A stretch of 64,000 nucleotides of DNA from Syntrophaceae bacterium UBA2280 (GTDB lineage Bacteria; Desulfobacterota; Syntrophia; Syntrophales; Smithellaceae), in contig DDWS01000001.1 in the NCBI GenBank assembly GCA_002347685.1, positions 18,641 to 82,640 on the forward strand, in the 5' to 3' direction. The notes under the pieces were generated by a model. It made no database searches and was not told where the DNA came from. It saw nothing but the letters and a program-made list of their open reading frames with translations. This document shows positions 28,302 to 47,452 of the stretch, one piece after another; within the stretch, counting starts at the first letter, position 1; every line of letters begins with the position of its first letter. The position numbers and the translations under genes are program-made.

Positions 28302-28322
28302 GATGCGTTTTCCTTTCTCTTA

Positions 28323-28367
28323 ATAGTCATTTGACTACATGATATAGACAAATGACTATTTTGTCAA
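28323..28367 (-). promoter_or_regulatory. Promoter with palindromic operator of the Xre-RES operon
   Basis: Minus strand TTGACA (28367-28362), 17 nt, TATCAT (28344-28339). Perfect 11-bp inverted repeat ATAGTCATTTG / CAAATGACTAT (28323-28333, 28349-28359) overlaps it. Confidence 0.65.
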
Positions 28368-28631
28368 GGGACTTTACCACAACGATGTCGTTTGTTGAAG
28401 TAAAGCCGTTCACATGCTACTTTATTTCGATGGACACTTCGAATAGATAGATTTTTTTAGTCGGTTAATTCATCCTCAGCACGGGTCAATAAAGTATCTG
28501 TGTATTTTTTTCCGTTACTGCAACATACATAGACGATTACCTGCCATTTATGTGGCTACAATTAATAACGACCCGTATTGGTACTATGTCAAGACCATAT
28601 AATGGACCATATCATGATCTGTCCCGACTTA

Positions 28632-28691
28632 TATTTAACCTGACAAACATTGTCCATTAATTCTCATCCTTAGCTATCTTCTTTCATCTAC
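28632..28691. repeat. 60-bp direct repeat, copy 1
   Basis: TATTTAACCTGACAAACATTGTCCATTAATTCTCATCCTTAGCTATCTTCTTTCATCTAC differs from 30316-30374 by 3 mismatches and 1 indel. Confidence 0.9.
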
Positions 28692-28739
28692 AAACAAGTG
28701 ATTGTGAATATTCCGGCTGTTGATGATTACTGTTTGAAG

Positions 28740-28813
28740 GCGCAACGTGGAGCTCACACTGGTGTCTATGGAGCGCAGTGGAATAGCCATCAAGTGCAGT
28801 GGGTTCGTTGGAC
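28740..28813 (-). other. Candidate attC-like recombination site downstream of the caspase-like gene
   Basis: Minus strand GTCCAAC (a perfect RYYYAAC) lies 11 nt after the stop, and GTTGCGC lies at the far end. The arms between them form an imperfect inverted repeat with bulges. Weaker than the 36-42 kb sites. Confidence 0.4.
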
Positions 28814-28824
28814 GACAGCCTCAC

Positions 28825-29799
28825 CTATATTCGATTCTTCGCTACCAATCTCCGGTAGTGCTCTCCCAGGGCTGTAAGTCTGCAAGACTTGCCCTCCATG
28901 GCAGCGTTCCACATGTGTGTGGCACCAACTGGAACGAGTAGGTTCAGGCGGTTGTAGCGTTGCAACACCCCAAAAATGCGCGTATTTTCAGGGATTGGTA
29001 TCGGCATTCCTGGGTCTCGACCTTTCATCTCAGGCTCATAAGTGGGATCAAGGCTATACTCAAAGCCAGGATCGGGAAAAAACTCGGCTAATCGGCGTAA
29101 ATCAGAAATATCTATCGGAGGGGATGACTTTCGCAACGAAACGAACTGTTTGACGTTAGTCTTAAATACTGGTCGCTGCTCCCATGCACCTAAGGATTGA
29201 TCAATGTGCGCGTATACGCTTCCTGGAGTAATGTCTCCGGTAAGGTTAGCCGCACTTCCACTCAGCGCATCCACAAAGAGAGAGGTAAATACCCCCCGCC
29301 CGTTTTCTTCCGTTGCATATTGATCTTTTGTAGATGCGGTTAGAACAGTGAGGCCCTCTGATAAAGTGGCCAACTGGTCGCTGGTTGATGGCGTACCTGC
29401 GATACCCGAGTGACAGCTGTCTAATACGATGACTTTGTTTTTTGCTGGCGAAGCGTTCGCGCAATTCAGAATCTCAGAAAGAGATACTCCTTCATCACCG
29501 CGTTTCGAGTCTGTCGCAAGTAGATAGCCTCCAGACGCTTCAATATGGCCATGACCTGCGAAGTAAAACAAGGCGATATTTGCGTCGGTTTTGAAAAGCT
29601 CCTCAATTCGATCTTTTAGCTCACTGCGATCTACTCGGTCACTCGGACCAGTGCCGGTGAGTAATCGACAATCGAAGTTTACCGCGCCACCATCGTGCCG
29701 TTCAAGAATTGCCTTAACAGCATGAGCATCATCAACACATCCGAATAGTGGGCTACCGTGTGCGTAATAGTTAATGCCAACAATAAGTGCTATTCGCAT
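28825..29799 (-). CDS. Caspase-like (peptidase C14) protease with an uncharacterised C-terminal domain of about 130 aa
   Basis: Catalytic dyad context FYFAGHGH and [10 protein letters not shown]. 324 aa. 18-nt gap after the TIR-like gene. Confidence 0.85.
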
Positions 29800-29817
29800 A
29801 ATAGTTACCTTCCTGTG

Positions 29818-30189
29818 CTAGAGACTATCAATAAATTTCTCGATTGCGGGCCATGTCCATACAACGGTATTTACACCGGATAGATTTGCTCGGTCATCTG
29901 TGTATGCCCATATGCCGAGAATCTTCTTTTTCTCTTCTCGCGCGCAGGCAATCTCCCATTTCTGACCACTTGAGGTAAAGGAGTTCTTACTTACAAGGGC
30001 GATGACACCATCCGAGCGAAGGATCCGCGTGCGAACTCGATCCTTCCAGTTAGAATCGTATGGCTCCTTCACTGACATATCGACGTACTCAAACGGTGAG
30101 TTCGTGTTTAGAGATTGGCCCTTGAGGAAGTCTCTTTGTCTCTCATCTTCGATAGCGAACGCCACAAAAATCACTTTCTTGTCTGCCAT
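29818..30189 (-). CDS. TIR-like domain protein (DUF1863/ThsB-like)
   Basis: KKVIFVAFAIEDERQRDFL...SDGVIALVSKNSFTSSGQKWEIACA...KILGIW. ATG at 30189 is preceded by GGAGAGG (track start 30210 is a GTG inside that SD). Confidence 0.75.
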   Translation of the reverse strand: MADKKVIFVAFAIEDERQRDFLKGQSLNTNSPFEYVDMSVKEPYDSNWKDRVRTRILRSDGVIALVSKNSFTSSGQKWEIACAREEKKKILGIWAYTDDRANLSGVNTVVWTWPAIEKFIDSL

Positions 30190-30315
30190 TTTCCTCTCCT
30201 TTTTATACACAGTTATTTTTTACAGCACTTCCGAGCAAGTTCGCGCCAATTTCGAGAAGCCGAACACCTTGTCATTCGTGAAGTCGAGTGGTGTCATATC
30301 GGCAATTGCCACTTC

Positions 30316-30374
30316 TATTTAACCTGACAGACATTGTCCATTATTCTCATCCTTAGCTATCTTCTTTCACCTAC
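30316..30374. repeat. 60-bp direct repeat, copy 2
   Basis: See 28632-28691. Lies about 125 nt upstream of the TIR-like gene start. Confidence 0.9.
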
Positions 30375-30548
30375 CTATACGCAGCATAATCCGATTTTTA
30401 TATTGATATTGTTATGTTACGTTGTTTTTTAATCATAATTCTAAATCTGTCAAGTTAATTTTATTCCCAGCCACGACTTGTACGGAGTCGGCTGCAGCAA
30501 TTTGTTTCGGCCTGTTCCGCGATCATCCATGGCCCTTCCTATACGCCA

Positions 30549-31637
30549 CTATTCCGGTTGCTGCTGTGGTTGACTTTCTGACCGTTCCATCAGCTTCCTT
30601 TCTGCCTCCGTTTGTTCTTCGTGCCACTTTGACCACTGTGCGTCTTCGTCTTTCAGTAGGTCTGCACTAACTGTTCTCGGTCTCAGACTTGCCATGTTCG
30701 CATCGGGTTTTGCCGCAAAGATAAATCTATGGGCGTGCTCGGCGATGCAGCGTCGTATTATTTCTGCCTGCTCTGAGCTAAACTGTGTTCCACGTTGCGG
30801 CGGTCGTGATCCAACTTGCGTATAAAGGAGGTGGGTTGGACTGATCGGCATGAATATTTCTGTTCCTTTACTTCCCCAACCACCACCGAAATCGTATTTG
30901 CTATGATTGTGAAAATTCAGGCGGACTACGGGATCATCGCTCGTAAACCATTCAGTTCCTTTCGGCGGAGCCATGATTGTCCACCGATGCTGCTGCAGAA
31001 CTTCGGCGGTTTTGGTAAGGAGATGCTTAATGCTAAAAAGCCACAAAGCGCGTCCGACAATGCTCTCCGCTTTTATCGTTCCGAACTCCTGGCCTCGTTG
31101 AATCTCGGTAGTAACACGTATTGGGAAATAGTTTGCCTGAGGAAATGGCGCAATGCGAATTTCTTCTCCACAAGCCTTCATGGACTCCAATTTCTCGACA
31201 GACTTCTCCAAAGTCATTTGAAAGAAGCCCGGGAAAGACTCATACCAACGCCGGAGAAACTCCACCAGTCTTGCTGGAGTTCTCACGTCCTGAGCGGATA
31301 GAAAACGTATCAAGACCCGCCAGTCGGATGGCTGGAGGCGACTGTCTGAAATAACCTTTTGCAGAACCTCTGCGGCAGGCGTCTCGTATTCACGGTCGAA
31401 CCATTTCTCTATCTCGTCAGTTGCGCCTCCCACTGCCAATCTCGTGTATAGATGTGCGTGATAGGCAACTCCTCGAATTGATTTCTCGTTCCATAGAGGT
31501 ACCTTCCCGTGCGAAACAAGCACACGATATAAACACACACGCCCGGGAGAGGATTCCCAAGCTTTAAGGTATTCACAGGGAACGTAGTGGTTGTCATGAT
31601 GAAAATCTGCTTGGGTCAAGAACGCCTCCGAGATCAA
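30549..31637 (-). CDS. DUF4238-like protein (362 aa)
   Basis: N-terminal HHDNHYVPCEYLKAW resembles the HYVPxFYL signature. Later LSAQDVRTP and WFTSDDPV...EIFMPISPTHLL also fit. Confidence 0.6.
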   Translation of the reverse strand: MISEAFLTQADFHHDNHYVPCEYLKAWESSPGRVCLYRVLVSHGKVPLWNEKSIRGVAYHAHLYTRLAVGGATDEIEKWFDREYETPAAEVLQKVISDSRLQPSDWRVLIRFLSAQDVRTPARLVEFLRRWYESFPGFFQMTLEKSVEKLESMKACGEEIRIAPFPQANYFPIRVTTEIQRGQEFGTIKAESIVGRALWLFSIKHLLTKTAEVLQQHRWTIMAPPKGTEWFTSDDPVVRLNFHNHSKYDFGGGWGSKGTEIFMPISPTHLLYTQVGSRPPQRGTQFSSEQAEIIRRCIAEHAHRFIFAAKPDANMASLRPRTVSADLLKDEDAQWSKWHEEQTEAERKLMERSESQPQQQPE

Positions 31638-31662
31638 GTAATGCCTTGACGATTATGTATGG

Positions 31663-31726
31663 GCCGAACAGTAAAGCTCAACCGGTGCGCGCCACGTGCA
31701 CGCAATCGGCTATAGCGAGGTTAGCA
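31663..31726 (-). other. Candidate attC-like site downstream of the 406-aa gene
   Basis: Plus strand GCCGAAC...GTTAGCA flanks imperfect inverted arms GCTCAACCGGTGCGC / GCACGCAATCGGCTATAGC with bulged bases. 64 bp. Confidence 0.5.
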
Positions 31727-31811
31727 GTTTTTTGCCGTTACTTAATATCGATCCCATATGCTTCAACAAAATCGACTATCATTTGTTTTTATTCTCTTTT
31801 GAATTCATTGT

Positions 31812-33032
31812 TCAATAATCTGTATCTAAGCATTTATTTAAAATGTGCCTCATGCACTCGGCACTTACATGCTTACAATTTATTGTTAATTGATCTGAAA
31901 CTTTATCAAATCTTTTAGTCCCATATATTATTCCAAGAGGTCGCCAATAATATTCAAGTTTATTTTGATGCACACACGTTCTGTCCGAACAATCGTCGTG
32001 TTTGGATGACTTTTTGATTAGTTTATTATCAATAGATTCAATCTTCATAGATGATTTATTAAATTTAATTAGGGCATTATGAGTTAATTTATTATCAAAT
32101 GGTAATTTATCGCATAAGAATTCTGCGAAGTCATTTTCAATTATTTTCTGGGATGTGATATATTCATCGAGCATTTTATGATCTTTAAGCTTCCGAACTA
32201 TCTCTTTGTGCTTTTGAATAATGTTAATAAATTCTTCATCGTAAATGTTATCCGGTAGTGAAATATGCCAGTTCAACCCCCCTTTACAGTAATAACGAAA
32301 ATCATCTAAATATTCAGCCGCCTTGATTGGGTCTGTTTCTAATGCAATACTTTTTAGAATAAAACAAACATTCTCAATTTCTGTCAATGCTTTAGCTGCA
32401 TTTTTTTTAGTTACATAAAACCCTTCTGGTACTTCACCCCAGTAATTATCTATCGGTATATTAAATTCTGGAAGCATATCATCATGTGAGACTTCAGAGG
32501 AGAATAAGTTCCAGTTGAGAAATTCTCTGTTTTTTGCAAAATCAGCTTTTATAAGCTGTGTCTCAATTTTATCCAGGGTCTCTCGCCGGGATGTAACCTT
32601 AAATTTATCAGTCTTTATCATTTTCCCTGGCATATAGAACTTTTCGTTTCCGTTATGAATAACTTTTTCACAATTGTCATCTATTTCAGTAGATGTTAAA
32701 AAATACATTAAGGGATTTTCTTCACTTCCTGTATGAACAATTAAAAAAAATTCATCTCTAGGTAGTCCTTGTTTATCAATGACATATTCGCAGTGTATAT
32801 AATGTGAGGTGCTACTTGTTTCAATAAATTTAGCCTGAACAACTCCTAATTTAGGTGCATTCCTGTCCAATATGTTCCTGTTTGTCAGCCTCCTTTGGAT
32901 AATAAAGTCAGCCCCATGAATATCGATAGACCTTTCTAATATCCAGAAACGATCCATTAAAAACGATCTGGTTCTGGCTTCTCCTATCGCTCCATTTTGA
33001 GCAATCTTGATCCAAGCTAGTTTTTTTTCCAT
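31812..33032 (-). CDS. Hypothetical protein with an N-terminal PD-(D/E)xK-like (DUF4365-like) nuclease domain
   Basis: GAIGEARTRSFLMDRFWILERSIDIHGADFIIQ...LGVVQAKF. Very AT-rich 406-aa ORF. Confidence 0.5.
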   Translation of the reverse strand: MEKKLAWIKIAQNGAIGEARTRSFLMDRFWILERSIDIHGADFIIQRRLTNRNILDRNAPKLGVVQAKFIETSSTSHYIHCEYVIDKQGLPRDEFFLIVHTGSEENPLMYFLTSTEIDDNCEKVIHNGNEKFYMPGKMIKTDKFKVTSRRETLDKIETQLIKADFAKNREFLNWNLFSSEVSHDDMLPEFNIPIDNYWGEVPEGFYVTKKNAAKALTEIENVCFILKSIALETDPIKAAEYLDDFRYYCKGGLNWHISLPDNIYDEEFINIIQKHKEIVRKLKDHKMLDEYITSQKIIENDFAEFLCDKLPFDNKLTHNALIKFNKSSMKIESIDNKLIKKSSKHDDCSDRTCVHQNKLEYYWRPLGIIYGTKRFDKVSDQLTINCKHVSAECMRHILNKCLDTDY

Positions 33033-33110
33033 AATACAATTCAGAAATATAAATTTGATTTATCCATTAAACATTGAGCAATATCGTGGTGTTTACGTAA
33101 ATCAAAGCGG

Positions 33111-33353
33111 TTAGCTATTATCTTCGCGCCAATCATAGTTGGCTTTGATTTTCAATATCCCCTTCAATCCTGCCTGCAACGGCTCGGGGTCAAGGGCGTC
33201 AAGTGTGTCATAATATAACTGGTCCTTCCATCGTATCGTCTCGAGCTCATCCCGCAAAAGCGCCTCTCGCCCGGCCTCGTGCTTTGCCTTGAGGCCGGCC
33301 ACCAACTCTCTGGCTCTCTTTTTGTCCTGCTCTGAGATTTTCTCAATCAACAA
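33111..33353 (-). CDS. Hypothetical 80-aa protein occupying the toxin position after a DUF2384 gene
   Basis: Starts 17 nt after the DUF2384-like gene. No RES motif. Charged and helical. Confidence 0.5.
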   Translation of the reverse strand: MLIEKISEQDKKRARELVAGLKAKHEAGREALLRDELETIRWKDQLYYDTLDALDPEPLQAGLKGILKIKANYDWREDNS

Positions 33354-33370
33354 TTATCCACTCACTCTAA

Positions 33371-33766
33371 CTAACGTATCACACCGTGCTCGATCTGGCC
33401 CAACTCATTGAGTACGGCTTCTACTCCACCCGGCTTTAACAGCCACTCCCGGCGGGTGCAATATAGGTCGGGGATCCAAGTGTTAAGATAGGAATCCACT
33501 GCACGCTCAGCCTCAAATACATCCATGGCCCTCTTTTGAATAACAACATGTCTTGCTAGCTGTCGCTTCAGTAATTTTAGCCGGTCCGCAGCACGACTGC
33601 CCCGGGCAGGTCCGAGGGCCTGCTCAATCCGTTCAAGCTTGATAGTCGCAGAGCGGATTGTTTCCGCCATAGTCAGACGATGGTCAGCAGCTTTTTGAAA
33701 AAAGAGATACGTCCGGTGCAAATCTATGTCCGCCTTCTCCAATATTTTTTTACGTTTAGGATCCAT
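33371..33766 (-). CDS. DUF2384-like (MbcA/ParS antitoxin C-terminal domain) protein
   Basis: The C-terminus AVDSYLNTWIPDLYCTRREWLLKPGGVEAVLNELGQIEHGVIR parallels the C-terminus of the 27873-28301 antitoxin. Confidence 0.65.
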   Translation of the reverse strand: MDPKRKKILEKADIDLHRTYLFFQKAADHRLTMAETIRSATIKLERIEQALGPARGSRAADRLKLLKRQLARHVVIQKRAMDVFEAERAVDSYLNTWIPDLYCTRREWLLKPGGVEAVLNELGQIEHGVIR

Positions 33767-33863
33767 GTTGAATACAATAGCCTAAATAGCAAAAAAAGGA
33801 AACTCCCAGATTCACGGACGCTAAGTTCAGTAAGCTAATCAGGCTAATCAAACTAATGGGCGG

Positions 33864-34223
33864 TCACACTTCCACCACGTTGATTAGCAAAATCATTTTT
33901 TTGATCACGTCTTCCAATGTTTCTTTTGGTGCCGCTGAAATATATTTTGCCTGCCTTTTCTCCCACTCCATACTTTTGATCTGATCGGAAAGAATGACAC
34001 CGTCTATTTTATTTTTTACGGTGATTCTGACTTCAAACGGATAACCGTTCATTTTTGATGTTATGGGGCAACAAAGAGCCAGGCCAGCTTTCGCATTATA
34101 CTCTTTTGGTGAAACAACAATTGCGGGGCGATGTCCAGATGGCTCATGCCCGCTTTGAGGGTTAAAAGATAGCCAGATAACATCACCTCGCGCGGGGATA
34201 TATTTACCAGATTTCTTTTCCAA
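33864..34223 (-). CDS. mazF: MazF/PemK-family endoribonuclease toxin
   Basis: GDVIWLSFNPQSGHEPSGHRPAIVVSPKEYN...CPITSK. TTG start overlaps the mazE remnant. Confidence 0.85.
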   Translation of the reverse strand: MEKKSGKYIPARGDVIWLSFNPQSGHEPSGHRPAIVVSPKEYNAKAGLALCCPITSKMNGYPFEVRITVKNKIDGVILSDQIKSMEWEKRQAKYISAAPKETLEDVIKKMILLINVVEV

Positions 34224-34392
34224 CAGGCCCTTCGCTCAATTCTTCTTTATGAATATTTTCATCGTTGATTTGTTCCAACAAATCACTTAATTTTAAGCTG
34301 ATTTTCTTCGGCACGATGACAATTTTATCTTTCTCATTAATCAAATCAACAACCGAACCCTGCTGAAGACCTCACGCGATTTTGCTAATCAT
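34204..34392 (-). pseudogene. mazE-like antitoxin remnant (N-terminally truncated, in-frame TGA)
   Basis: The frame reads MISKIA*GLQQGSVVDLINEKDKIVIVPKK...EGPVGKEIW*. This is the C-terminal two-thirds of an AbrB/MazE-type antitoxin. Its ATG overlaps the Fic stop, codon 7 is TGA, and the N-terminal beta-hairpin is absent. Confidence 0.6.
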
Positions 34393-35594
34393 ATTCTCGT
34401 CGCGGGATATAAATCTGGAAAAAACCAACCAGCGGCATGAACAGGGAACCCCATTCGGACATTCCCCTTGGGGGAATCTGCTACCAGCAGTCCCTCGTCG
34501 ATCAATTGGCCCAAAAGATTTCTTCCCGTGCGTTCCTTTAAACCAGATGCGGTTATAGCCAAACCCCTTGGGATCTCACCCTTCATCAGCACCTCCTGTA
34601 TCATCGGTGCAGCTTCTAATCTTAAAGCGTATTTCCCGATAGGATTGGGGATTAAACCAGCGTCGCGAAACTCAATATATTTTCTCACTCGTTCAACCAA
34701 CTCATCCAATTGCAGCAACCCGGCCATATATTCAGCTTGATCGAGGCATACCTCCAAGAAGAAGCGACAAAATACCATCAAACCATCATTGGACAGATTC
34801 CCTCTACCATCTAAATCATTTTTTCTAGCCACGTCAGCACCAGCCAGCCTTGACTTGTAATCGGTGCTTCTGCGTGCCAACCCACGGCTAACAGACCACA
34901 GCCCAAAACCTTTGACTGGTATCTGATGAAGGTATGCCTCCGTGAAAAGTCGCGCTACGCGACCATTGCCGTCCAAAAACGGATGTATCCACATCAATCG
35001 ATGGTGGGCAGCCGCTGCAGCAACGAGCTTTAAAGCGCCATGATGAATACCCGGCGCATAAGCATCACTGAACCGATCCAAAAGAATTTGTACGGAATCA
35101 TGATCCGGCGGGCGATGACGTCCAACAATGACAGGCTCGTTTCGCAACATTCCAGGAATAACCTGGCTTTCCCTTCCGGTTTTTTCGTCTTTTACAATCC
35201 GGAATCCTTCGGGCAGTTGGCGATAAAATTCCCGATGTAAAAAACAAAGAAATTCGCTTCCAGTGATATTTAATTCCGGGGACTCCCTCAACCTCGTCTC
35301 CATGCAATCCTGCACGAGGACGTGGGCTACGCTTTCCATCTGAAGATCGCGTTTTGCAGGTTCCGAGTCATACTCTTCCTGCATAGCACGGACAATATCG
35401 TAAGGATGTATGTTATGGCCCTCAATGAGATTCGAATAATAACTGTTGATAATCCGAAGGAATATCTTTAGAGATTCAATGGTAATGTCATGCTGACGCC
35501 CGGCAATAGTCGCCGATCTCTGGATAACCTCTAGAGCAATATGCTGAAGCTCTTCCGCCCGCTCGGGCATCAATGGTGTGATTCGCTGCTGCAT
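34389..35594 (-). CDS. Fic/DOC family protein (probable AMPylase)
   Basis: Fic motif HPFLDGNGRVARL. 401 aa. Confidence 0.9.
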   Translation of the reverse strand: MQQRITPLMPERAEELQHIALEVIQRSATIAGRQHDITIESLKIFLRIINSYYSNLIEGHNIHPYDIVRAMQEEYDSEPAKRDLQMESVAHVLVQDCMETRLRESPELNITGSEFLCFLHREFYRQLPEGFRIVKDEKTGRESQVIPGMLRNEPVIVGRHRPPDHDSVQILLDRFSDAYAPGIHHGALKLVAAAAAHHRLMWIHPFLDGNGRVARLFTEAYLHQIPVKGFGLWSVSRGLARRSTDYKSRLAGADVARKNDLDGRGNLSNDGLMVFCRFFLEVCLDQAEYMAGLLQLDELVERVRKYIEFRDAGLIPNPIGKYALRLEAAPMIQEVLMKGEIPRGLAITASGLKERTGRNLLGQLIDEGLLVADSPKGNVRMGFPVHAAGWFFPDLYPATRI

Positions 35595-35662
35595 CTAGTC
35601 CGCCATATTAATATCATTTTTTGCCGATTTACATTTATTACAATTCATTAATAATTTGAGTA

Positions 35663-35950
35663 TCATACTATCACAAATACAGTTGATGCGTTATGATTAT
35701 TGCCGATTATTTTGCCGATCCCTACACCAGTCAGAATATTCCGAAAAAAGGAAGCAACTCTTAGTGAACACACCACGGTATCCTTGTTTTCCAGGGCGAC
35801 TTTCGATTTACGCCAGGCGTCGTTGGTAAGGGTAAGCAGGGCGACCTGATCCCCATTGCTGTCGATCACAGCAAAACAAACCTCGCCGGTGTCCGCCATC
35901 TGGTATAATCGCTTACGGACATACCAGAAGGCGAGGGTTTCAAGGCTCAT
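35663..35950 (-). CDS. Hypothetical protein, possibly a gene fragment
   Basis: 95-aa ORF. The reading frame stays open upstream of the ATG, so it may be a fragment. VCFAVIDSNGDQVALLTL weakly recalls GlcG-like proteins. Confidence 0.3.
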   Translation of the reverse strand: MSLETLAFWYVRKRLYQMADTGEVCFAVIDSNGDQVALLTLTNDAWRKSKVALENKDTVVCSLRVASFFRNILTGVGIGKIIGNNHNASTVFVIV

Positions 35951-36285
35951 GACCGTTTGCTCCCGGTACTTGGCCAGGGCATCCCGGCACGCAAAATACG
36001 CCTCCTGACGGCCCCCTGATGCTCTATTATTTCTTGGTTCAATTTAATTTAATATTTCATTCATCAAAATCCGTTAATGCCGCAATTAAAAGTAAAAAAA
36101 TAATATCTTAAAGATTGATGTTTTTAAGCGCATCTTATTGACGATTCTTCGGTTGATGTTTTGTGAAATAAGGATAGAGGGAAGAGTGGCGAATGTCAAA
36201 ATAACAAGGCGGCTCGTCCGTTTGCATCTACAAGTCAGCACCCATGGTGGATGAAATATTTTACTGATTTGCAATTGTAATAACG

Positions 36286-36446
36286 AGTCTGTAGAATAAC
36301 TCCAAAATAAGATATTCTTGCTATTTTTAGGGGTCTTTTTACCCCTCATCATCGCCAGATCGTCGCTTGTGGAGCATTCTCAGAAATTGATTTTTTAAGC
36401 ATCGTTCCCTGAATGCTGCTTCCTGACTTATTCTACAAGCTCAACG
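36286..36446. mobile_element. 161-bp MITE-like element with 15-bp terminal inverted repeats, copy a
   Basis: Ends are GAGTCTGTAGAATAA ... TTATTCTACAAGCTC, flanked by AACG on both sides. About 10 differences from copies b and c. Confidence 0.8.
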
Positions 36447-36607
36447 AGTCTGTAGAATAACTCCAAAATAAAATATTCTTGCTATTTTTAGGGGTCTTTT
36501 TACCCCTCATCATCGCCAGATCGTCGCTTGTGGGGCATTCTCCGAAGTCGTTTTTTTAAGCATCGTGTCCTGAATACCGCTTCCTGACTTATTCTACAAG
36601 CTCAACG
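36447..36607. mobile_element. 161-bp MITE-like element, copy b (tandem to copy a)
   Basis: By eye identical to copy c at 38685-38845. Directly abuts copy a and shares the AACG junction. Confidence 0.8.
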
Positions 36608-36665
36608 TAAAAATCAGCGGGAGCGTAGCGATCGGCTGGATTGCCTTTGTTATGCATTCATTGTC

Positions 36666-37649
36666 TTACCCGAATTTACCGCCCAAATACGTATAATTGT
36701 CCACATAGTTCTCTATTACTTTATGACCTTTGTCCAACTCGGCCTGAATAAATTCTTTAGACTGCCTCGGATGAAGTACGTTCTCCCTTGTAAGCTGCGG
36801 TGCCCGGAAATTGTCATTGCCGACGACTTGCTCCCGGCGGACTGCGTCAAAAGTATAATCGAGACCAGGCCATTCGAGTTCACTCTTGAAACCCTCTGCA
36901 AGCAGGACAGTAAAACGGTAGATGCCAAAGAGCGACACATAACCTACAAGAAGCCCCCGGTTCCTGTTAAGCGCGACGTGAATTTTATGAATAGGTCGAA
37001 CATGGTCTGTCATGAATCCAGTATGGGCAAAATTGGCACAGGCAAGAGCAGGCTTGTCAGATGCCTTTATGTATTTCCGAACCGCTTCGAACGCCGCTGA
37101 GAATATGACACTCTCAGGAAGTTTTATACACGTAAAGCCATATGCGATTTTTGAGACTGCTCTGCGCAGCAATGCATTGTCTATCATCATTACGCGTTCA
37201 GCTTCGGTCGGACCTTGGTGCACGTCCTGAAAGGTCTTCATGTCGCCTGGTACCTCATAGCGCCTCTGAATAGATGTACATATTTTCTTCAGTTCTTGCT
37301 CGGAGCGAGCTGTGACGTCCGCAAAATCAAGTTTCTTCCCGTCTTTGGAAACCACCTTGACCACTGGGTTCTTTCGCTTCATACTCTTTCCATCAAGGAG
37401 AAGCGTGGTTCCGGATTTCAATTCTTTGACTTCATAGGGCTGCGCCTTACTCCGCTCCCTCTTAATATTAAGCAGCGTACCGATCCACCCAAACTGCTTC
37501 GATATCTCATCGTCTATGCTGTCCCCAAAGGCTTCGTTGCACACCTTGCAGTACAGTTTTGCCTTCAACCTACCCCCAATTGCTTGTGGGATTATGTGTT
37601 CCACCGTCAGCGATCGTGGTTCAGTACAGACAAAGCAGTGAGTTTTCAT
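36666..37649 (-). CDS. HNH endonuclease domain protein (cassette-encoded)
   Basis: CFVCTEPRSLTVEHIIPQAIGGRLKAKLYCKVCNEAFG (CxxC...EH...CxxCN). 327 aa. The stop lies just upstream of the attC. Confidence 0.7.
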   Translation of the reverse strand: MKTHCFVCTEPRSLTVEHIIPQAIGGRLKAKLYCKVCNEAFGDSIDDEISKQFGWIGTLLNIKRERSKAQPYEVKELKSGTTLLLDGKSMKRKNPVVKVVSKDGKKLDFADVTARSEQELKKICTSIQRRYEVPGDMKTFQDVHQGPTEAERVMMIDNALLRRAVSKIAYGFTCIKLPESVIFSAAFEAVRKYIKASDKPALACANFAHTGFMTDHVRPIHKIHVALNRNRGLLVGYVSLFGIYRFTVLLAEGFKSELEWPGLDYTFDAVRREQVVGNDNFRAPQLTRENVLHPRQSKEFIQAELDKGHKVIENYVDNYTYLGGKFG

Positions 37650-37665
37650 TAGTTTGTTGTTCCAT

Positions 37666-37731
37666 GCATAACAACATGCTCACCGGCGTGGCGCGCTGTT
37701 CAGCCACGTCCGGTGCAGCTATTCGTTATGC
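37666..37731 (-). other. attC site
   Basis: GCATAAC...GTTATGC with imperfect inverted arms ACATGCTCACCGGCGTGGC / GCCACGTCCGGTGCAGCTAT. Starts 2 nt after the stop of 37734..38111. Confidence 0.8.
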
Positions 37732-37733
37732 AG

Positions 37734-38111
37734 CTACGTTTTGACCCTGGTGTTGTATTTACATTTCGGGCATTCATGAGTCGCGTTCATTATCTCTACA
37801 AAATCAGTCGGCACAGGTCTCATATAGAATGGTCTACCAACTGTCGAACAGTTGGGGCAGGTTGGGACTCCAGAGGGTCCGGTCGCTGTTGCCGAAAGCT
37901 CCTGAATCCGGTGCTCCAGGCTCCTAATCTTGTCTTTTAGCTCCTGTCGCTCCTCCCGTAGTGCTATGTTTGCTTCATGCAGTGCGGCCTGCTCCGACTG
38001 AAGTGTTAAGGCAAGATTTTGAACTTCACGAAGTTCGGCGGCAACTTTCCTATCAGCGATGCTTGTTGATAATTGCGTCACAAGGTCAACCAAATCTTTG
38101 ATGGTCCCCAC
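37734..38111 (-). CDS. Coiled-coil protein with a C-terminal zinc ribbon (second gene of a two-gene cassette)
   Basis: Heptad-rich N-terminus, then CPNC...CPKC. Starts 15 nt after the upstream gene. Confidence 0.6.
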   Translation of the reverse strand: MGTIKDLVDLVTQLSTSIADRKVAAELREVQNLALTLQSEQAALHEANIALREERQELKDKIRSLEHRIQELSATATGPSGVPTCPNCSTVGRPFYMRPVPTDFVEIMNATHECPKCKYNTRVKT

Positions 38112-38126
38112 CTACGGCCTCCTTTC

Positions 38127-38663
38127 TCATCCCTCAAGTTCATGCCTAAAGTCTGTCTTGATTCTGTCAAGCAATTCGTTGCGCGTATTCGTGTTACCCT
38201 TGAGCTCAGCAACGTAGCGATGCAAAGCGTCGTTAACCTCATCTGCCAAATACTTTGGGTTGATAGAAAGGCATCTTGAAACAATGACAACCGTCTCGGG
38301 CTGATCAAGTGCGAATTGTCCTCCATTTTTGATACGGCCTTCGTGAACCAAGCCATTTCTGAATTCATCATAGAACCGGTGAGCAATGTCGTTGCTGGCA
38401 AAGCTTTGCAGTTGGGCCTTTACCCATGAACGGAATCGGTCGCCCACGCCAGTAGACAGGTGCAACCGTGCAAGGGCATCGATGCAACTCACTAACAGAA
38501 GTCCGCAGGCGAAGGCATGGCCGTTTCTTATCATTGCAGCGGCGGGCTCCAAGTAGAAGCCTTTCATTCGTTTCTCAAACTGCTCTGGCAGTATCTGGCC
38601 GGAAAGGTCCAGCTCTGCGAACTTGATACCCGGAGCAAAATAGAGGATGTCAGCAATTCTCAT
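38127..38663 (-). CDS. Hypothetical protein with an Rx4H (HEPN-like) motif
   Basis: FRNGLVHEG (R-N-x3-H). ATG at 38663 is preceded by GGAAGGA (track GTG start 38675 lies inside the attC core). Confidence 0.55.
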   Translation of the reverse strand: MRIADILYFAPGIKFAELDLSGQILPEQFEKRMKGFYLEPAAAMIRNGHAFACGLLLVSCIDALARLHLSTGVGDRFRSWVKAQLQSFASNDIAHRFYDEFRNGLVHEGRIKNGGQFALDQPETVVIVSRCLSINPKYLADEVNDALHRYVAELKGNTNTRNELLDRIKTDFRHELEG

Positions 38664-38676
38664 TTTTCCTTCCACT

Positions 38677-38901
38677 GCATAACGAGTCTGTAGAATAACT
38701 CCAAAATAAAATATTCTTGCTATTTTTAGGGGTCTTTTTACCCCTCATCATCGCCAGATCGTCGCTTGTGGGGCATTCTCCGAAGTCGTTTTTTTAAGCA
38801 TCGTGTCCTGAATACCGCTTCCTGACTTATTCTACAAGCTCAACGTAAAAATCAGCGGGAGCCTGATTTTTAGGCGATCCGCTGGATTGATTTTGTTATG
38901 C
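38677..38901 (-). other. attC site of the 389-aa cassette, interrupted by one 161-bp element
   Basis: GCATAACG | insert | TAAAAATCAGCGGGAGCCTGATTTTTAGGCGATCCGCTGGATTGATTTTGTTATGC. The stop codon of 38896..40065 lies inside the distal core. Confidence 0.75.
38685..38845. mobile_element. 161-bp MITE-like element, copy c
   Basis: Same ends, same orientation and same insertion point (after ATAACG) as at 36286. Confidence 0.8.
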
Positions 38902-40065
38902 GTGTTCTAATATTTTTTCAATTTCTTCCTTTAATGATCCAATAACATCTGAATGGCTTTCCATATGAAAACCGATAATGCAGACGGCGTCGTGTTTGGT
39001 GTGTTCGCGACTGTCTGGCAACCTCAAAATGTCGTAACCCATAATGTGGCCGTTCAAGTTATTACAATAATTAACAGCCCTAATGGTTGCCAACTCCTCT
39101 TTAGTTGGAGCAAACATTCTTGACGGAGGCGTAAAGATGGCTTCAAAACAAGGAGCGACCACTTCCCTGATAAAATTATCGACATCCTTGAGATTAATAT
39201 TGTTCTTTGGCTTATAAAAAACACTCAAGATAATTGGACCATAAAGAGCGCTAAATAATGGATATTGCTTTTTAAAAGCAGATAGTTTCTTTGTAATTAC
39301 TTCTTTCTGGGAAACGATTTCCTCTGTGTTTCTTGGAATGGTTACGCTTACGCGAATAGGATATTTCAAAACAGTCATCAGAATGTCTACGAACGAAGTG
39401 CCTCTACGTTTGTATTTGTTGTGATTATAAAGCAAGTCCAAGTAAAAAGGTTGCACTTCATTGATTCTTAGAATGTCTTGTTGTCTTTGATACATTTCAA
39501 TCTTATACCCAAGTGAGTTAACGGGATAGTTAATCGGTTCAGTGAGGTCAACGTCTCTTTCCCGCTCTCGGCCGGCAACACGGTTTTCGTCTTTAAGTCT
39601 TTTAAAAATGTTAGCGTATTCAAGAACTGCGTTAAAACTCTCTATAAGAATATGCGCACCAGCGGACTGCATTTCTATGTTTTGACGAACGGAGAGAAAG
39701 GATACCTGCGAGTCATCATAGTATGGCAGGCGTGATCTTATCGCCCCGTCATTTTCTCGTGGGTCTTGTTGATTGCGGTTTACATGCATTAAATCCAACA
39801 TATTTTTAGACGCATTGACAACTGTCGGAGGACTGTTGTCGTTGTAGCAGTAGAGAATTCGCAGATAAACGTTACTTGTAAATGCTTTTCTTCCTAAATT
39901 TATAAAGCGTTGGTTGAGATCTCTCTTAACAATATTTCTCTTTTTTTGGCTCATACCTTGCTTCGACTTCACTTTGCCATCAATAGAGAAAAGAATTTGT
40001 CTTCTCTGCAACTGGCGGAATTTATGTTTTAAGAAATCCAAGGATTCAAGGTAGTCATTAAACAT
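38896..40065 (-). CDS. Hypothetical protein (389 aa), cassette-encoded, no family recognised
   Basis: AT-rich ORF that fills the space between two attC sites. Confidence 0.6.
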   Translation of the reverse strand: MFNDYLESLDFLKHKFRQLQRRQILFSIDGKVKSKQGMSQKKRNIVKRDLNQRFINLGRKAFTSNVYLRILYCYNDNSPPTVVNASKNMLDLMHVNRNQQDPRENDGAIRSRLPYYDDSQVSFLSVRQNIEMQSAGAHILIESFNAVLEYANIFKRLKDENRVAGRERERDVDLTEPINYPVNSLGYKIEMYQRQQDILRINEVQPFYLDLLYNHNKYKRRGTSFVDILMTVLKYPIRVSVTIPRNTEEIVSQKEVITKKLSAFKKQYPLFSALYGPIILSVFYKPKNNINLKDVDNFIREVVAPCFEAIFTPPSRMFAPTKEELATIRAVNYCNNLNGHIMGYDILRLPDSREHTKHDAVCIIGFHMESHSDVIGSLKEEIEKILEHA

Positions 40066-40084
40066 ATGTCATTAATCTCAATGT

Positions 40085-40141
40085 GTATAACGACGAAATC
40101 AGCGGGGAGCGTAGCGAGTCCGCTGTATTGCCTGGTTATGC
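40085..40141 (-). other. attC site
   Basis: GTATAACGACGAAATCAGCGGGGAGCGTAGCGAGTCCGCTGTATTGCCTGGTTATGC. ATAAC/GTTAT cores, CAGCGG/CCGCTG inner stem, unpaired spacer bases. Confidence 0.85.
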
Positions 40142-40145
40142 ATTT

Positions 40146-40739
40146 TCACGTGTCCCTGTTTAAACGATACCACATAATATCATCATATTGCGTTGGAATA
40201 ATATCATTATTGAATTCATTATTTATTTCCGTCTTAATTAAACATTGTAGCTTGTCGTACAATTTTTGGTCGATTTGTTCGACACTCTTTGCTTGAATAA
40301 TCTCATCGGGGAATTTAATTTTAAGGTGATTCAATATCGGATTGTCGATTGCTGTGTTCATGAATGGTAAAATAACTACTGCCGTTTCACTGTCCGGTAG
40401 ACTTGAATAGTAGACGTAAACTTTCAATACGACATCAAGTAATTTGGCTGCGTGTCCATAAAGCGCATATCCGGATTCTTTAATTATTCTATTATCTCTT
40501 TCCTTCTGTGCTGTTTTAATATTCTTTGTGAACCATATGCAAAAATTGCCATGCAACCTTTTGAATTCTTCTTCAGTTCTTATCTCTTTGAGTTTCTGAA
40601 ATTCTTCATATAGTTTCTTTCCGATTATCGGTTTTGTACCTTTTTCAAAGAGTCGGATCATGGCTGTAAATGTCAAACCCATGTCTATAACACTCTTCTG
40701 TTTTATTTCGGAGGCGATCACTATATTCGCTGACTTCAT
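40146..40739 (-). CDS. Hypothetical protein (197 aa), cassette-encoded
   Basis: AT-rich ORF bounded by attC sites on both sides. Confidence 0.6.
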   Translation of the reverse strand: MKSANIVIASEIKQKSVIDMGLTFTAMIRLFEKGTKPIIGKKLYEEFQKLKEIRTEEEFKRLHGNFCIWFTKNIKTAQKERDNRIIKESGYALYGHAAKLLDVVLKVYVYYSSLPDSETAVVILPFMNTAIDNPILNHLKIKFPDEIIQAKSVEQIDQKLYDKLQCLIKTEINNEFNNDIIPTQYDDIMWYRLNRDT

Positions 40740-40753
40740 ATTATTTCATTCCT

Positions 40754-40809
40754 GCATAACGGCGAAATCACCCGGAACGTAGCGATCGGGTGTATTGCTT
40801 TTGTTAGGC
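40754..40809 (-). other. attC site
   Basis: GCATAACGGCGAAATCACCCGGAACGTAGCGATCGGGTGTATTGCTTTTGTTAGGC. The stop codon of 40804..41586 lies inside the distal core. Confidence 0.85.
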
Positions 40810-41586
40810 TTTTTCATGCCAATGACTGAGAAATAAGTGGCCAAATTCCGATACGGCCATTCCATCGGTCAATAACTGAGGATGGAGGATCAAAGGTCTC
40901 GGTGGTGAATCTTCTTTAAAAGCGTGCAAAAAGGTGAAATTCGGACTGCCAAGCGCATCTTGCTCGGTCCACACCTGCTCCAAACGTTCCCAGTTACTGT
41001 TTTTTATGCATTCGGTCTTCTCCGCCTCTAGTTCATTGAAGCGTCGTCCTTCTTCCGGCACAAATTCTGCTGGAGGTATATACGGCGGAATCCGATGCGC
41101 AAGTGCATCTCTATAGGACTTTGCGTAGGACTTGTGCCACTCAGTTGTCAGTGGTGAAGTCAAATAGTTACGCAGCTGTTCTGGCAAGTGGTCGCGGGTT
41201 GCATCGATGAAGAGCCCAACCCGACGGCGATCTCCTATTATCGATTCCAGATTGTGGCGGAGCACATACGCCCAAGCCCAGTTATCGTATAGTCCATAAA
41301 GGTTTATTAAGAAAGCGTGCAAGTTGATTTGTACGTCAGTTAAAGTGTTCCTGTCAAGTGGACGTGTTGTGCTTGGGGGAAACAGAGTGAACACGTTCTC
41401 AATACTGCGCCGAATGACTCCAACGCGCCGGCCTGCCCCATGCAGCAAGTGCTCACGCGCGCGCGATGCAGGATCGAGTAGTTGCCCTTCGAGAACGATC
41501 TTTAATTGCAAGTCGTTCAACATGGCGAGTACTTCAACGCATTGCGATTCTAGTGTCTCAAGTGCTTCAGCGTAAAAGAACATCAT
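40804..41586 (-). CDS. Hypothetical protein (260 aa) with an Rx4H (HEPN-like) motif, cassette-encoded
   Basis: YRDALAHRIP (R-x4-H). Higher GC than neighbouring cassettes. Confidence 0.55.
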   Translation of the reverse strand: MMFFYAEALETLESQCVEVLAMLNDLQLKIVLEGQLLDPASRAREHLLHGAGRRVGVIRRSIENVFTLFPPSTTRPLDRNTLTDVQINLHAFLINLYGLYDNWAWAYVLRHNLESIIGDRRRVGLFIDATRDHLPEQLRNYLTSPLTTEWHKSYAKSYRDALAHRIPPYIPPAEFVPEEGRRFNELEAEKTECIKNSNWERLEQVWTEQDALGSPNFTFLHAFKEDSPPRPLILHPQLLTDGMAVSEFGHLFLSHWHEKA

Positions 41587-41603
41587 GCCTCGATGCCGTC
41601 ATG

Positions 41604-41659
41604 GCCTAACGACGAAATCACCCGGAGCGTAGCGATCGGGTGGATTGATTTTGTTATGT
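41604..41659 (-). other. attC site
   Basis: GCCTAACGACGAAATCACCCGGAGCGTAGCGATCGGGTGGATTGATTTTGTTATGT, near-identical to 40754-40809. Confidence 0.85.
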
Positions 41660-42312: not shown

Positions 42313-42319
42313 ACATAAC
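42313..42319 (-). other. Orphan GTTATGT core at the head of the cassette array (attI-like junction or truncated attC)
   Basis: Minus strand GTTATGT lies 18 nt upstream of the ATG of the first cassette. I found no partner ATAAC core within 150 nt upstream. Confidence 0.35.
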
Positions 42320-42431
42320 AATTAATCTACCGTGTTTGGTTTTTCCGAAAAATCGATATTTTTATACTCCGATCGAAAAAGAAAGGAAAGCGAAAAAATG
42401 CTTAAAAAACAACGAACATTGAAAAGCTGCA

Positions 42432-47437: not shown

Positions 47438-47452
47438 TCCTTGTTCCCCTGC

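What the first reader, a model, noticed from the sequence alone, without database searches (positions are those of the whole stretch)
36278..38901. A 161-bp element with inverted-repeat ends inserted at the identical position of two different attC sites (three copies, two in tandem)
Copies at 36286-36446, 36447-36607 and 38685-38845 begin (G)AGTCTGTAGAATAA and end TTATTCTACAAGCTC, a 15-bp terminal inverted repeat. All have the same orientation and all sit right after ATAACG of the attC, flanked by AACG on both sides. Read in cassette orientation the junctions are ...TTTTTAC-G|TTGAGC... and ...GACTC-G|TTATGC. That is exactly the G|TT crossover point of the attC R' core, and GTTGAGC fits GTTRRRY. 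The element could therefore be one of two things. It could be a MITE with attC target specificity, by analogy with the attC-targeting IS1111-type elements. Or it could be an ORF-less minicassette inserted by integrase-type recombination; joining its ends would create a palindromic TTATTCTACAGACTC-GTT-GAGCTTGTAGAATAA site. It contains a conserved hairpin (AGGGGT-CTTTTT-ACCCCT) and an outward-facing ATGATG with no stop before the element end. It lies directly upstream of the next cassette, so it may also affect downstream cassette expression. Copies b and c look identical, and copy a differs at about 10 positions clustered in the right third.
Basis: seen in the sequence. Interest (0 to 1): 0.7.

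Follow-up and report, generated by a model that had tools for sequence, protein, structure and literature searches.

The report
attC-targeting miniature transposon (IS1182-type MITE)
The three repeats are copies of a 158-bp non-coding "miniature" transposon whose full-length, transposase-carrying relatives insert at exactly the same three bases of integron recombination sites (attC) in many bacteria, a third kind of attC-targeting mobile element for which I found no description.

Summary
Three same-orientation copies of a 158-bp element with 15-18-bp terminal inverted repeats lie in two attC sites of a short cassette array. Each copy is flanked by AAC on the + strand, which is GTT in cassette orientation; this gives the 161-bp period. 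Two copies are in tandem.

It is a MITE, not an integrase-made minicassette. Scans of public genomes and metagenomes recovered 107 MITEs with the same ends and at least 11 full-length elements of 1.8 kb. The full-length elements have the same inverted repeats, the same GTT/GTT flanks and the same orientation. They encode an intact 509-536-aa DDE transposase that scores as IS1182 family, just under the NCBIfam cut-off. One sits in the complete integron of Psychromonas ingrahamii 37.

The target is C-GTT-R, the R' core where the integron integrase crosses over. IS1111-attC elements and group IIC-attC introns use the other end of attC in antisense.

Hosts include Smithellaceae (this window), marine Gammaproteobacteria, other Desulfobacterota and a Sulfurovum MAG. 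No transposase lies in the window, so mobilisation must be in trans.

I found no published description. No promoter, terminator or covarying RNA structure is supported.

The parts
36278..36284 (-). Remainder of the R' core of attC_B. It reads G|TTATTAC in cassette orientation. The last three bases, 36282-36284 (AAC), are one copy of the 3-bp duplication.
   Evidence: The reconstructed empty site, GCATAAC...TTTTTAC-GTT-ATTA, aligns with the intact attCs.
36285..36442 (-). MITE copy a, 158 bp. It is the copy distal to the attC body and differs from b at 10 positions. On the + strand the right-end repeat (RE) is 36285-36302 and the left-end repeat (LE) is 36425-36442.
36443..36445 (.). AAC (GTT in cassette orientation) shared between the tandem copies a and b.
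   Evidence: The same head-to-tail arrangement occurs in L038, L108, L135 and L143.
36446..36603 (-). MITE copy b, 158 bp. It lies next to the attC body and is identical to copy c.
36604..36655 (-). Body of attC_B, from R'' GCATAAC down to ...TTTTTAC-GTT. Bases 36604-36606 (AAC) are the third copy of the duplicated triplet.
   Evidence: nhmmer E = 1.9e-16.
38677..38683 (-). Remainder of the R' core of attC_A (G|TTATGC in cassette orientation). Bases 38681-38683 (AAC) are a duplication copy. The next cassette ORF starts 18 nt further on (ATG at 38663).
38684..38841 (-). MITE copy c, 158 bp.
38842..38901 (-). Body of attC_A. Bases 38842-38844 (AAC) are a duplication copy. Its loop is 8 nt longer than in the other family members.
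   Evidence: E = 3.9e-13; fold.
37666..37731 (-). Intact, unoccupied attC.
40085..40141 (-). Intact, unoccupied attC of the same family.
40754..40809 (-). Intact, unoccupied attC of the same family.
41604..41659 (-). Intact, unoccupied attC of the same family. It is the first attC of the array.

Best explanation
The repeats are copies of a non-autonomous miniature inverted-repeat transposable element (MITE). It belongs to a clade of IS1182-type DDE insertion sequences that insert, in one fixed orientation, into the C-GTT-R core (R') at the 3' end of integron attC sites.

Proposed mechanism (inferred): a transposase supplied in trans from elsewhere in the genome binds the roughly 16-bp terminal inverted repeats, GAG(N2)TGTAGAATAA. 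It cuts the target with a 3-bp stagger, so GTT appears on both sides of the element. The left end always lies next to the attC body, and in the full-length elements the transposase gene points the same way as the cassettes.

The target determinants appear to lie on the attC-body side, and they survive an insertion. A second copy can therefore land between the attC body and the first copy, which yields the tandem a-b pair. On this reading b is the younger copy: b is identical to c, while a has diverged.

Shown here: shared ends, flanks, position and orientation between the MITEs and the transposase-bearing elements; many independent insertions; and empty paralogous sites. Inferred: the DDE cut-and-paste chemistry, the 3-bp stagger, trans-mobilisation in this genome, and recognition of something beyond the 5-bp core, such as the attC hairpin.
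For: - **Family size.** A scan of reference genomes with both inverted repeats found about 30 copies in Colwellia spp. and one in a Sulfurovum MAG. Each sits as attC...GGC-GTT|GAGGCTGTAGAATAAC...CTACAAGCTC|GTT-ATGT.
- **Autonomous relatives.** Pseudoalteromonas chromids carry a 1839-bp element with the same ends and flanks (L039 8421-10259). Its transposase matches Pfam DDE_Tnp_1_6 and DUF772, and NCBIfam IS1182 at 262-266 bits over the whole profile.
- **Metagenome scan and scripts.**
  - 126 elements carry both ends: 107 MITEs of 134-158 bp, 29 of them of the window's 157/158-bp type.
  - At least 11 full-length elements of 1809-1865 bp have intact 509-536-aa open frames.
  - GTT lies on both sides in 116 of 126.
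  - The flank logo over 111 non-redundant sites is ..GG-C-GTT|el|GTT-R...
  - All 74 classifiable MITEs and all full-length elements share one orientation.
- **Empty sites.** 82 of 124 left flanks have paralogous copies that are followed by GTT plus RRRY-like bases instead of the element. The window has four intact attCs of the same family.
- **Complete integron.** In Psychromonas ingrahamii 37 (CP000510.1) the element sits after the first cassette next to intI. Shewanella goraebulensis and Desulfocapsa sulfexigens show the same flanks.
- **Tandem copies.** Head-to-tail copies sharing one GTT recur in L038, L108, L135 and L143. In L108 and L135 the distal copy's visible left-end repeat is degenerate.
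- **Specificity in the window.** The window has 196 CGTTR sites, of which 6 are attC R' cores. Both independent insertion sites are among those 6.
- **Family precedent.** The IS1182 member IS1272 targets hairpins (PMC4923244, PMC5678879).
Against: - No transposase gene or other remnant lies in the 64-kb window, so mobilisation in this genome is inferred only.
- No sampled full-length element shares the interior of the 158-bp type; only the ends match.
- The transposases score just below the curated NCBIfam IS1182 cut-off of 270 bits.
- Sequence alone cannot tell a 3-bp duplication from an element that carries one GTT and inserts without duplication. IS1272, in the same family, makes no duplication.
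- My three attempts to score 'attC-ness' of the flanks statistically failed. Outside the window, attC context therefore rests on the paralogue test, the flank logo and inspection.
Confidence: 0.85

Rival explanations
1. The element is an ORF-less minicassette. The integron integrase IntI inserted and tandemly re-inserted it by recombination at G|TT.
For: Both junctions fall within the GTT of the R' core. The left junction, GTTGAGC, fits GTTRRRY. Tandem arrays are typical of site-specific insertion. All MITE copies found are in integron arrays.
Against: In cassette orientation the element has a single AAC and no R''/L''/L'/R' structure of its own (read from the sequence). The 1.8-kb relatives with the same ends and flanks encode a DDE transposase. 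A 60%-identical relative in a Nitrospiraceae MAG sits at five or more non-integron places, in most cases still flanked by C-GTT|...|GTT-R. No intI was found among the window ORFs scanned.
Confidence: 0.05
2. The element is a MITE of the IS1111-attC / IS110 type, moved by a DEDD transposase guided by a seekRNA (bridge RNA) encoded in the element.
For: attC targeting is known for IS1111-attC elements. The 4-bp boundary ambiguity allows the repeats to be read as subterminal with 7-nt and 3-nt extensions, as in IS1111. The element length of about 160 nt is comparable with a guide RNA.
Against: Full-length partners encode an IS1182-type DDE transposase, not a DEDD enzyme. IS1111-attC elements insert near the 5' end of attC in antisense, whereas this element sits at the 3' R' core in sense. 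Rfam found nothing in the window. No covariation supports a conserved RNA fold. Conserved target flanks span only about 5-8 nt across attC families.
Confidence: 0.02
3. The 161-bp unit is an ancestral part of a long attC variant, not an insertion.
For: It always lies inside attC. The folded filled site keeps the outer R''/R' pairing.
Against: Intact attCs of the same family lack the unit, both in the window and elsewhere. The same element sits in unrelated attC families in different phyla. Copies are identical at two sites and tandem at one. Autonomous relatives exist.
Confidence: 0.01

Closest known systems
IS1182 family insertion sequences, including IS1272/TnSha1, which targets hairpins
   Same: The partner transposase has the IS1182 architecture: DUF772 plus DDE_Tnp_1_6, with a full-length match to NCBIfam NF033551. 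The elements are 1.8 kb with short terminal inverted repeats. The family has a recorded liking for palindromic or hairpin targets (PMC4923244, PMC5678879).
   Different: IS1272 cuts hairpin stems with little sequence specificity, in both orientations, with partial deletion of the target and no duplication. This clade uses one defined triplet (C-GTT-R) in one orientation, leaves GTT on both sides and leaves the target otherwise intact. Its scores fall 4-8 bits under the curated family cut-off.
IS1111-attC group (ISPa21, ISPst6, ISKpn4)
   Same: They are mobile elements that specifically target integron attC sites at one fixed position and in one fixed orientation.
   Different: They use a DEDD transposase guided by a seekRNA (PMC11187229). 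They insert near the 5' end of attC, antisense to the cassettes (PMC3001079). No MITE derivatives came up in my searches. The present element has a DDE partner and sits at the 3' R' core in sense orientation.
Group IIC-attC introns
   Same: They are attC-specific and orientation-specific invaders of cassette arrays. One lies next to the IS in Desulfocapsa locus L169.
   Different: They are retroelements that insert into the bottom strand near the 5' end of attC. Their mechanism and size are unrelated.
Bacterial MITEs in general (for example Correia elements, or the MITEs and IMUs that flank class 1 integrons)
   Same: They are small, non-coding, bounded by inverted repeats, multi-copy, and share their ends with an autonomous IS.
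   Different: The integron-associated MITEs described so far flank whole integrons and mobilise them. They do not target the attC core.
ORF-less integron gene cassettes
   Same: They are short non-coding units bounded by G|TT in a cassette array.
   Different: A cassette carries its own attC. This element has none, and it has a transposase-encoding relative.

Membership tests
MITE (non-autonomous derivative of a DDE insertion sequence) | Small size and no coding capacity for a transposase | tested here: met
   The element is 158 bp. tblastn with the clade's transposase finds nothing in the window.
MITE (non-autonomous derivative of a DDE insertion sequence) | Terminal inverted repeats shared with an autonomous element | tested here: met
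   GAG(N2)TGTAGAATAA...TTATTCTACA(N2)CTC occurs on the MITEs and on the 1809-1865-bp elements that carry intact transposase genes.
MITE (non-autonomous derivative of a DDE insertion sequence) | Short direct repeat of target sequence at both ends | tested here: met
   GTT lies on both sides in 116 of 126 elements, while empty sites have one GTT. Caveat: the right-hand GTT was part of the metagenome search pattern. Flanks alone also cannot exclude an element that carries one GTT itself.
MITE (non-autonomous derivative of a DDE insertion sequence) | Multiple dispersed copies, with evidence of recent movement | tested here: met
   There are three copies at two attCs in the window, two of them identical. 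107 MITE copies were catalogued across the window and the fetched loci, 29 of them of the window's 157/158-bp type.
MITE (non-autonomous derivative of a DDE insertion sequence) | Mobilisation in trans by the cognate transposase | not testable with these tools
   This needs an experiment or the whole genome of the host.
IS1182 family (the autonomous partner) | Transposase matches the family profile above the curated threshold | tested here: inconclusive
   NCBIfam NF033551 scores 261.8-266 bits against a cut-off of 270, aligned over profile positions 23-487 of 488. Pfam DDE_Tnp_1_6 (99 bits) and DUF772 (56 bits) are above their cut-offs.
IS1182 family (the autonomous partner) | Single transposase ORF flanked by short terminal inverted repeats, length about 1.3-2 kb (from my memory of ISfinder's family description) | tested here: met
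   Elements are 1809-1865 bp with one 509-536-aa open frame and roughly 16-bp inverted repeats.
Integron gene cassette | Own attC with R''(RYYYAAC)/L''/L'/R'(GTTRRRY) at its 3' end | tested here: not met
   In cassette orientation the element has one AAC (AAAAAAC). No partner is complementary to GTTGAGC or GTTATGC (read from the sequence).
Integron gene cassette | Bounded by G|TT crossover points | tested here: met
   The boundaries fall within C-GTT on both sides. This feature does not discriminate between the hypotheses.
IS1111-attC group | DEDD (IS110/IS1111) transposase | tested here: not met
   The partner transposase is DDE of IS1182 type.
IS1111-attC group | Insertion near the 5' end of attC, antisense to the cassettes | tested here: not met
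   Insertion here is at the 3' R' core, co-directional with the cassettes. The defining feature is taken from PMC3001079.
attC (the target site) | Inverse core sites R'' RYYYAAC and R' GTTRRRY around an imperfect palindrome, repeated after successive cassettes | tested here: met
   Six sites, GCATAAC...GTTATGC and variants, each follow a minus-strand ORF. In the MFE folds the outer R''/R' bases pair in three of the four sites folded.
attC (the target site) | Association with an integron integrase | tested here: not met
   No intI was recognised in the window, but only a selection of ORFs was scanned with Pfam. The array looks like a cluster of attC sites without integrase, or the integrase lies outside the window. 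In P. ingrahamii the same type of IS lies next to intI.

The most novel reading that the evidence does not exclude
This clade may have evolved to live inside integrons, not merely to hit a short motif. By duplicating exactly the integrase crossover triplet and starting with GAG(C/G), the element rebuilds a GTTRRRY-like R' core on the upstream attC. Its inverted repeats can fold out of the single strand, leaving the old R''/R' pair intact. IntI could therefore still recombine the site and carry the IS or MITE along with a neighbouring cassette. That would be a transposon with a second, integrase-driven route of spread. It would also masquerade as a 'transposase cassette' or a non-coding cassette in integron annotations. 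A companion idea is that the DDE transposase reads the folded attC hairpin, as IntI does.
Probability: 0.2. Interest if true: 0.75.

Novelty: new variant of a known kind. Interest (0 to 1): 0.55.

Why it matters
Two kinds of mobile element are known to home specifically into attC sites: IS1111-attC elements and group IIC-attC introns. Both use the 5' end of the site in antisense.

This finding adds a third, unrelated kind: an IS1182-type DDE element with abundant MITE derivatives. It uses the very triplet where the integron integrase exchanges strands, and it is co-oriented with the cassettes. It is widespread, with at least 45 copies in the Colwellia loci sampled, plus Shewanella, Pseudoalteromonas, Psychromonas, Desulfobacterota and Sulfurovum.

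- **Annotation.** The elements lengthen attC sites by 161 bp or about 1.84 kb. They can be mistaken for cassettes, and assemblies break at them.
- **Integron biology.** They may alter attC recombination and cassette expression, and they provide homology for rearrangements.
- **Transposition mechanism.** They pose a testable question: how does a DDE transposase achieve oriented, near-site-specific insertion into a hairpin-forming site?

Tried and rejected
- **Rfam.** A scan of the whole window at gathering thresholds gave no hit.
- **Plasmid search with the window's own unit.** blastn found nothing. The Colwellia-type unit was what led to Pseudoalteromonas.
- **Scoring attC-likeness of the flanks.** Three statistics failed: exact R''/R' complementarity, a global alignment of the arms, and a constrained MFE. 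They were too strict, were confounded by G+C content and length, or had controls drawn from arrays. I discarded them. I relied instead on a paralogue ('empty site') test, the flank logo and an nhmmer profile in the window.
- **RNA or DNA structure.** RNAalifold recovers only the inverted-repeat stem and the invariant GGGGT/ACCCC hairpin. A candidate stem, suggested by a compensatory-looking change between a and b, pairs in 82% of cells but shows no covariation above shuffles.
- **Promoters and terminators.** The scan found nothing above shuffle expectation.
- **A parent IS for the 158-bp type.** I looked for a full-length element sharing its interior and found only fragments of further MITEs at contig ends.
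- **IS1111/seekRNA idea.** Considered because of the 7-nt and 3-nt subterminal geometry, and rejected once the DDE partner was found.
- **Chance hits of the first scan.** L008, L009, L018 and L024 were set aside.
- **Host identification.** Exact-protein look-ups gave only metagenome records. IlvC homologues place the host in Smithellaceae.
Full report
**1. The observation**

Reading 35.8-39.3 kb and the repeat finder confirm three same-orientation copies of one unit. Pattern searches with shuffles agree: the 19-nt left end occurs 3 times against 0.00 expected.

The coding strand of this region is the minus strand. In that orientation each cassette ORF is followed by a roughly 56-nt imperfect palindrome, GCATAAC...GTTATGC. 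Intact copies lie at 37666-37731, 40085-40141, 40754-40809 and 41604-41659. Two further copies are interrupted by the element. In DNA folds the outer R''/R' bases pair in three of the four sites folded.

The element proper is 158 bp: a = 36285-36442, b = 36446-36603, c = 38684-38841. It begins GAG and ends CTC. Every copy is flanked by AAC on the + strand, which is GTT in cassette orientation.

Copies b and c are identical. Copy a differs from b at 10 positions. The identity of b and c runs 21 nt into the flank. The same flank, GCTCC(C/G)GCTGATTTTT(T/A)C-GTT, recurs at unrelated insertion sites in metagenomes (listing). The shared flank therefore reflects the attC family and not co-transfer.

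**2. The element belongs to a large family**

A scan of one genome per species with both inverted repeats returned about 30 copies in Colwellia spp. and one in a Sulfurovum MAG. Four hits were chance matches.

In cassette orientation every true copy reads attC...GGC-GTT|GAGGCTGTAGAATAAC ... GAGTTATTCTACAAGCTC|GTT-ATGT. That is the same position in attC and the same orientation as in the window, although the interior sequence and the attC family differ.

**3. Autonomous relatives**

A blastn search of the plasmid collection with the Colwellia unit hit Pseudoalteromonas chromids. There the right end of the repeat follows the 3' end of a transposase gene.

A complete copy lies at L039 8421-10259 (1839 bp). 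It reads ...TACAACGGC-GTT|GAGGCTGTAGAATTACC ... ACGAGTTATTCTACAGGCTC|GTT-ATATTTC, between two cassette ORFs and pointing the same way as them.

The transposase has DUF772 and DDE_Tnp_1_6 domains. It matches NCBIfam 'IS1182 family transposase' over the whole profile at 262-266 bits against a cut-off of 270.

**4. Metagenome scan**

Scripts on these loci and the earlier ones gave the following counts.

| Measure | Result |
|---|---|
| Elements with both ends | 126 |
| MITEs of 134-158 bp | 107 |
| MITEs of the window's 157/158-bp type | 29 |
| Full-length elements of 1809-1865 bp with open frames of 509-536 aa | at least 11 |
| Identity of their transposases to the Pseudoalteromonas one | 43-99% |
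| GTT on both sides | 116 of 126 |
| Classifiable MITEs in one orientation | 74 of 74 |
| Full-length elements with the left end next to the attC body | all |
| Left flanks with an empty paralogous site elsewhere | 82 of 124 |

- The right-hand GTT was part of the search pattern. The left-hand GTT was not.
- Over 111 non-redundant sites the flank logo is (G)(C)TTA-N4-GG-C-GTT | element | GTT-R-(T/G).
- An empty paralogous site is a copy of the left flank followed by GTT plus purine-rich bases instead of the element.

**5. Whole-genome contexts**

Homologues of the gamma-type transposase occur in Shewanella, Pseudoalteromonas, Colwellia, Psychromonas and Marinomonas.

- In Psychromonas ingrahamii 37 the element lies after the first cassette of a complete integron, next to intI, flanked GGC-GTT and GTT-ATAT.
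- In Shewanella goraebulensis the flanks are the same.
- A second sub-clade, with 43% identity and a right end CAGACTC as in the window, occurs in Desulfocapsa sulfexigens, Desulfopila, Desulfobulbaceae and other MAGs.
- In Desulfocapsa it is flanked AAC-GTT and GTT-ATTC. It lies among toxin-antitoxin cassettes and next to a group II intron reverse transcriptase.
- A 60%-identical relative in a Nitrospiraceae MAG occupies at least five different places that do not look like integrons. In most of them it is still flanked by C-GTT and GTT-R.

The core target therefore travels with the transposase clade and not with an integrase.

The window's host is a Smithellaceae bacterium: its IlvC is 98% identical to that of a Smithellaceae MAG.

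**6. What it is and how it works**

The evidence fits a MITE mobilised in trans by an IS1182-type DDE transposase. The window holds no transposase gene and no further remnant of the element.

A 3-bp staggered cut at GTT is the simplest reading of the flanks. An element that owns one GTT and inserts without duplication cannot be excluded from sequence alone.

The 5-bp core C-GTT-R cannot by itself explain the specificity. The window has 196 such sites, 6 of them attC cores, and both independent insertion sites are among the 6. All MITE copies whose flanks I inspected lie in attC-like sites (listings).

Something more must be read. It could be the hairpin-forming attC, for which IS1272 in the same family gives a precedent (PMC4923244, PMC5678879). 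It could also be extended sequence on the attC-body side.

Tandem copies sharing one GTT recur in four other loci. Where the distal copy's left-end repeat can be read (L108, L135), it is degenerate. This is expected if the determinants lie in the attC body and each new copy enters between the body and the previous copy. In the window the proximal copy b equals c, and the distal copy a has diverged.

**7. What it is not**

- **Not a cassette.** It has no attC of its own.
- **Not an IS1111-attC derivative.** The partner enzyme is different, and the element uses the opposite end and strand of attC (PMC3001079, PMC11187229).
- **Not an ancestral part of attC.** Empty sites exist, and the element occurs in several unrelated attC families.

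**8. Function beyond mobility**

Nothing is established.

- The interior of the 158-bp type holds conserved blocks: GGAGAATGCCCCACAAGCGACGATC and GAGGGGTAAAAAGACCCCT.
- The hairpin never varies informatively, and a candidate second stem shows no covariation above shuffles.
- Promoter-like and terminator-like matches are at chance level.
- The open frame from ATGATG runs out of the element, but I did not test it further.
- The filled attC is predicted to keep its outer R''/R' pairing, and in the centroid structure the inverted repeats pair with each other. The new junction GTTGAG(C) still fits GTTRRRY. The site may therefore stay usable by IntI. This is the speculative 'hitch-hiking' reading.

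**9. Literature**

Full-text searches found no description of an IS1182-type element or a MITE that targets the attC R' core. The searches combined attC with MITE, IS1182 with attC or integron, Colwellia with integron, and attC sites with insertion sequences.

ISfinder could not be consulted, and named members may exist there. Boucher et al. 2006 mention an integron 'gene cassette that encodes a transposase' in Vibrio salmonicida (PMC1382264). Elements of this kind would look exactly like that.

**10. Verdict**

It belongs to a different family and uses a different part of attC than the analogy suggested. The integrase-minicassette reading is not supported.

I rate it a new variant of a known kind, of moderate to good interest.

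Noticed in passing
window 36604-41659, and 42318-42325 (minus strand): The array has only six attCs of one family. No integron integrase was recognised in the window, though only a selection of ORFs was scanned with Pfam. A GTTATGT lies 16 nt upstream of the first cassette's start codon and could be an attI crossover. The array looks like a cluster of attC sites lacking an integrase. Beyond it at higher window coordinates lies a type III restriction-modification pair (44843-49579).
   Followed up: partly
window 38842-38901: attC_A has a loop 8 nt longer than its relatives. This creates an extra palindrome, CTAAAAATCAG / CTGATTTTTA. Its fold is much more stable than shuffles (z = -6.25).
   Followed up: no
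L035, L036, L037 (metagenome contigs carrying the window's HNH cassette): Independent assemblies of the same cassettes break inside the MITE copies. The element therefore acts as an assembly-breaking repeat. It probably has more copies in this genome than the three seen here.
   Followed up: partly
L017:1250, L019:7490, L019:5365, L030:2451-2560: These Colwellia MITE copies are truncated at the 5' side and fused to the 5' half of an attC (...AAGCCATTCAAGCAGGAC|...). They look like deletions across short homologies between the attC and the MITE interior.
   Followed up: no
L041 about 1800-2700: In Pseudoalteromonas sp. NC201 the 5' part of the IS1182-type element is replaced by, or interrupted by, an IS110-family transposase gene.
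   Followed up: no
L169 2927-4276: In Desulfocapsa sulfexigens a group II intron reverse transcriptase (RVT_1 plus GIIM), antisense to the cassettes, lies one cassette upstream of the IS1182-type element. Two different attC-associated invaders may share one array.
   Followed up: no
L032 (Sulfurovum MAG): The attC sequences on both sides of the MITE-bearing cassette are interrupted by ends resembling IS66-type inverted repeats (GTAAGCGATCAATCAACG...).
   Followed up: no
L171-L178 (Nitrospiraceae MAG): A 1809-bp relative (inverted repeat GAGGCTGTAGAAAAAGTC) sits at five or more non-integron places, in most cases still flanked C-GTT / GTT-R. Some sites are short palindromes, such as ATAACG-N16-CGTTAT in L173, or attC-like hairpins, as in L178. 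L171 and L172 share the right flank but not the left, which suggests recombination between copies.
   Followed up: partly
The clade's transposases score 262-266 bits on NCBIfam NF033551, whose cut-off is 270. This may be why many are named only 'transposase' or 'IS4 family' in public records.
   Followed up: partly
window 28300-36000: The stretch at lower window coordinates than the attC array, downstream of it in cassette orientation, has low G+C: 43% for 28.3-44.2 kb, array included, against 53% for the first 26 kb. It holds defence-like and addiction-like genes: a caspase-like peptidase at 28825-29799, a Fic protein at 34389-35594, and an HNH protein at 36666-37649 inside the array. No attC of the family was detected in that stretch.
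   Followed up: no
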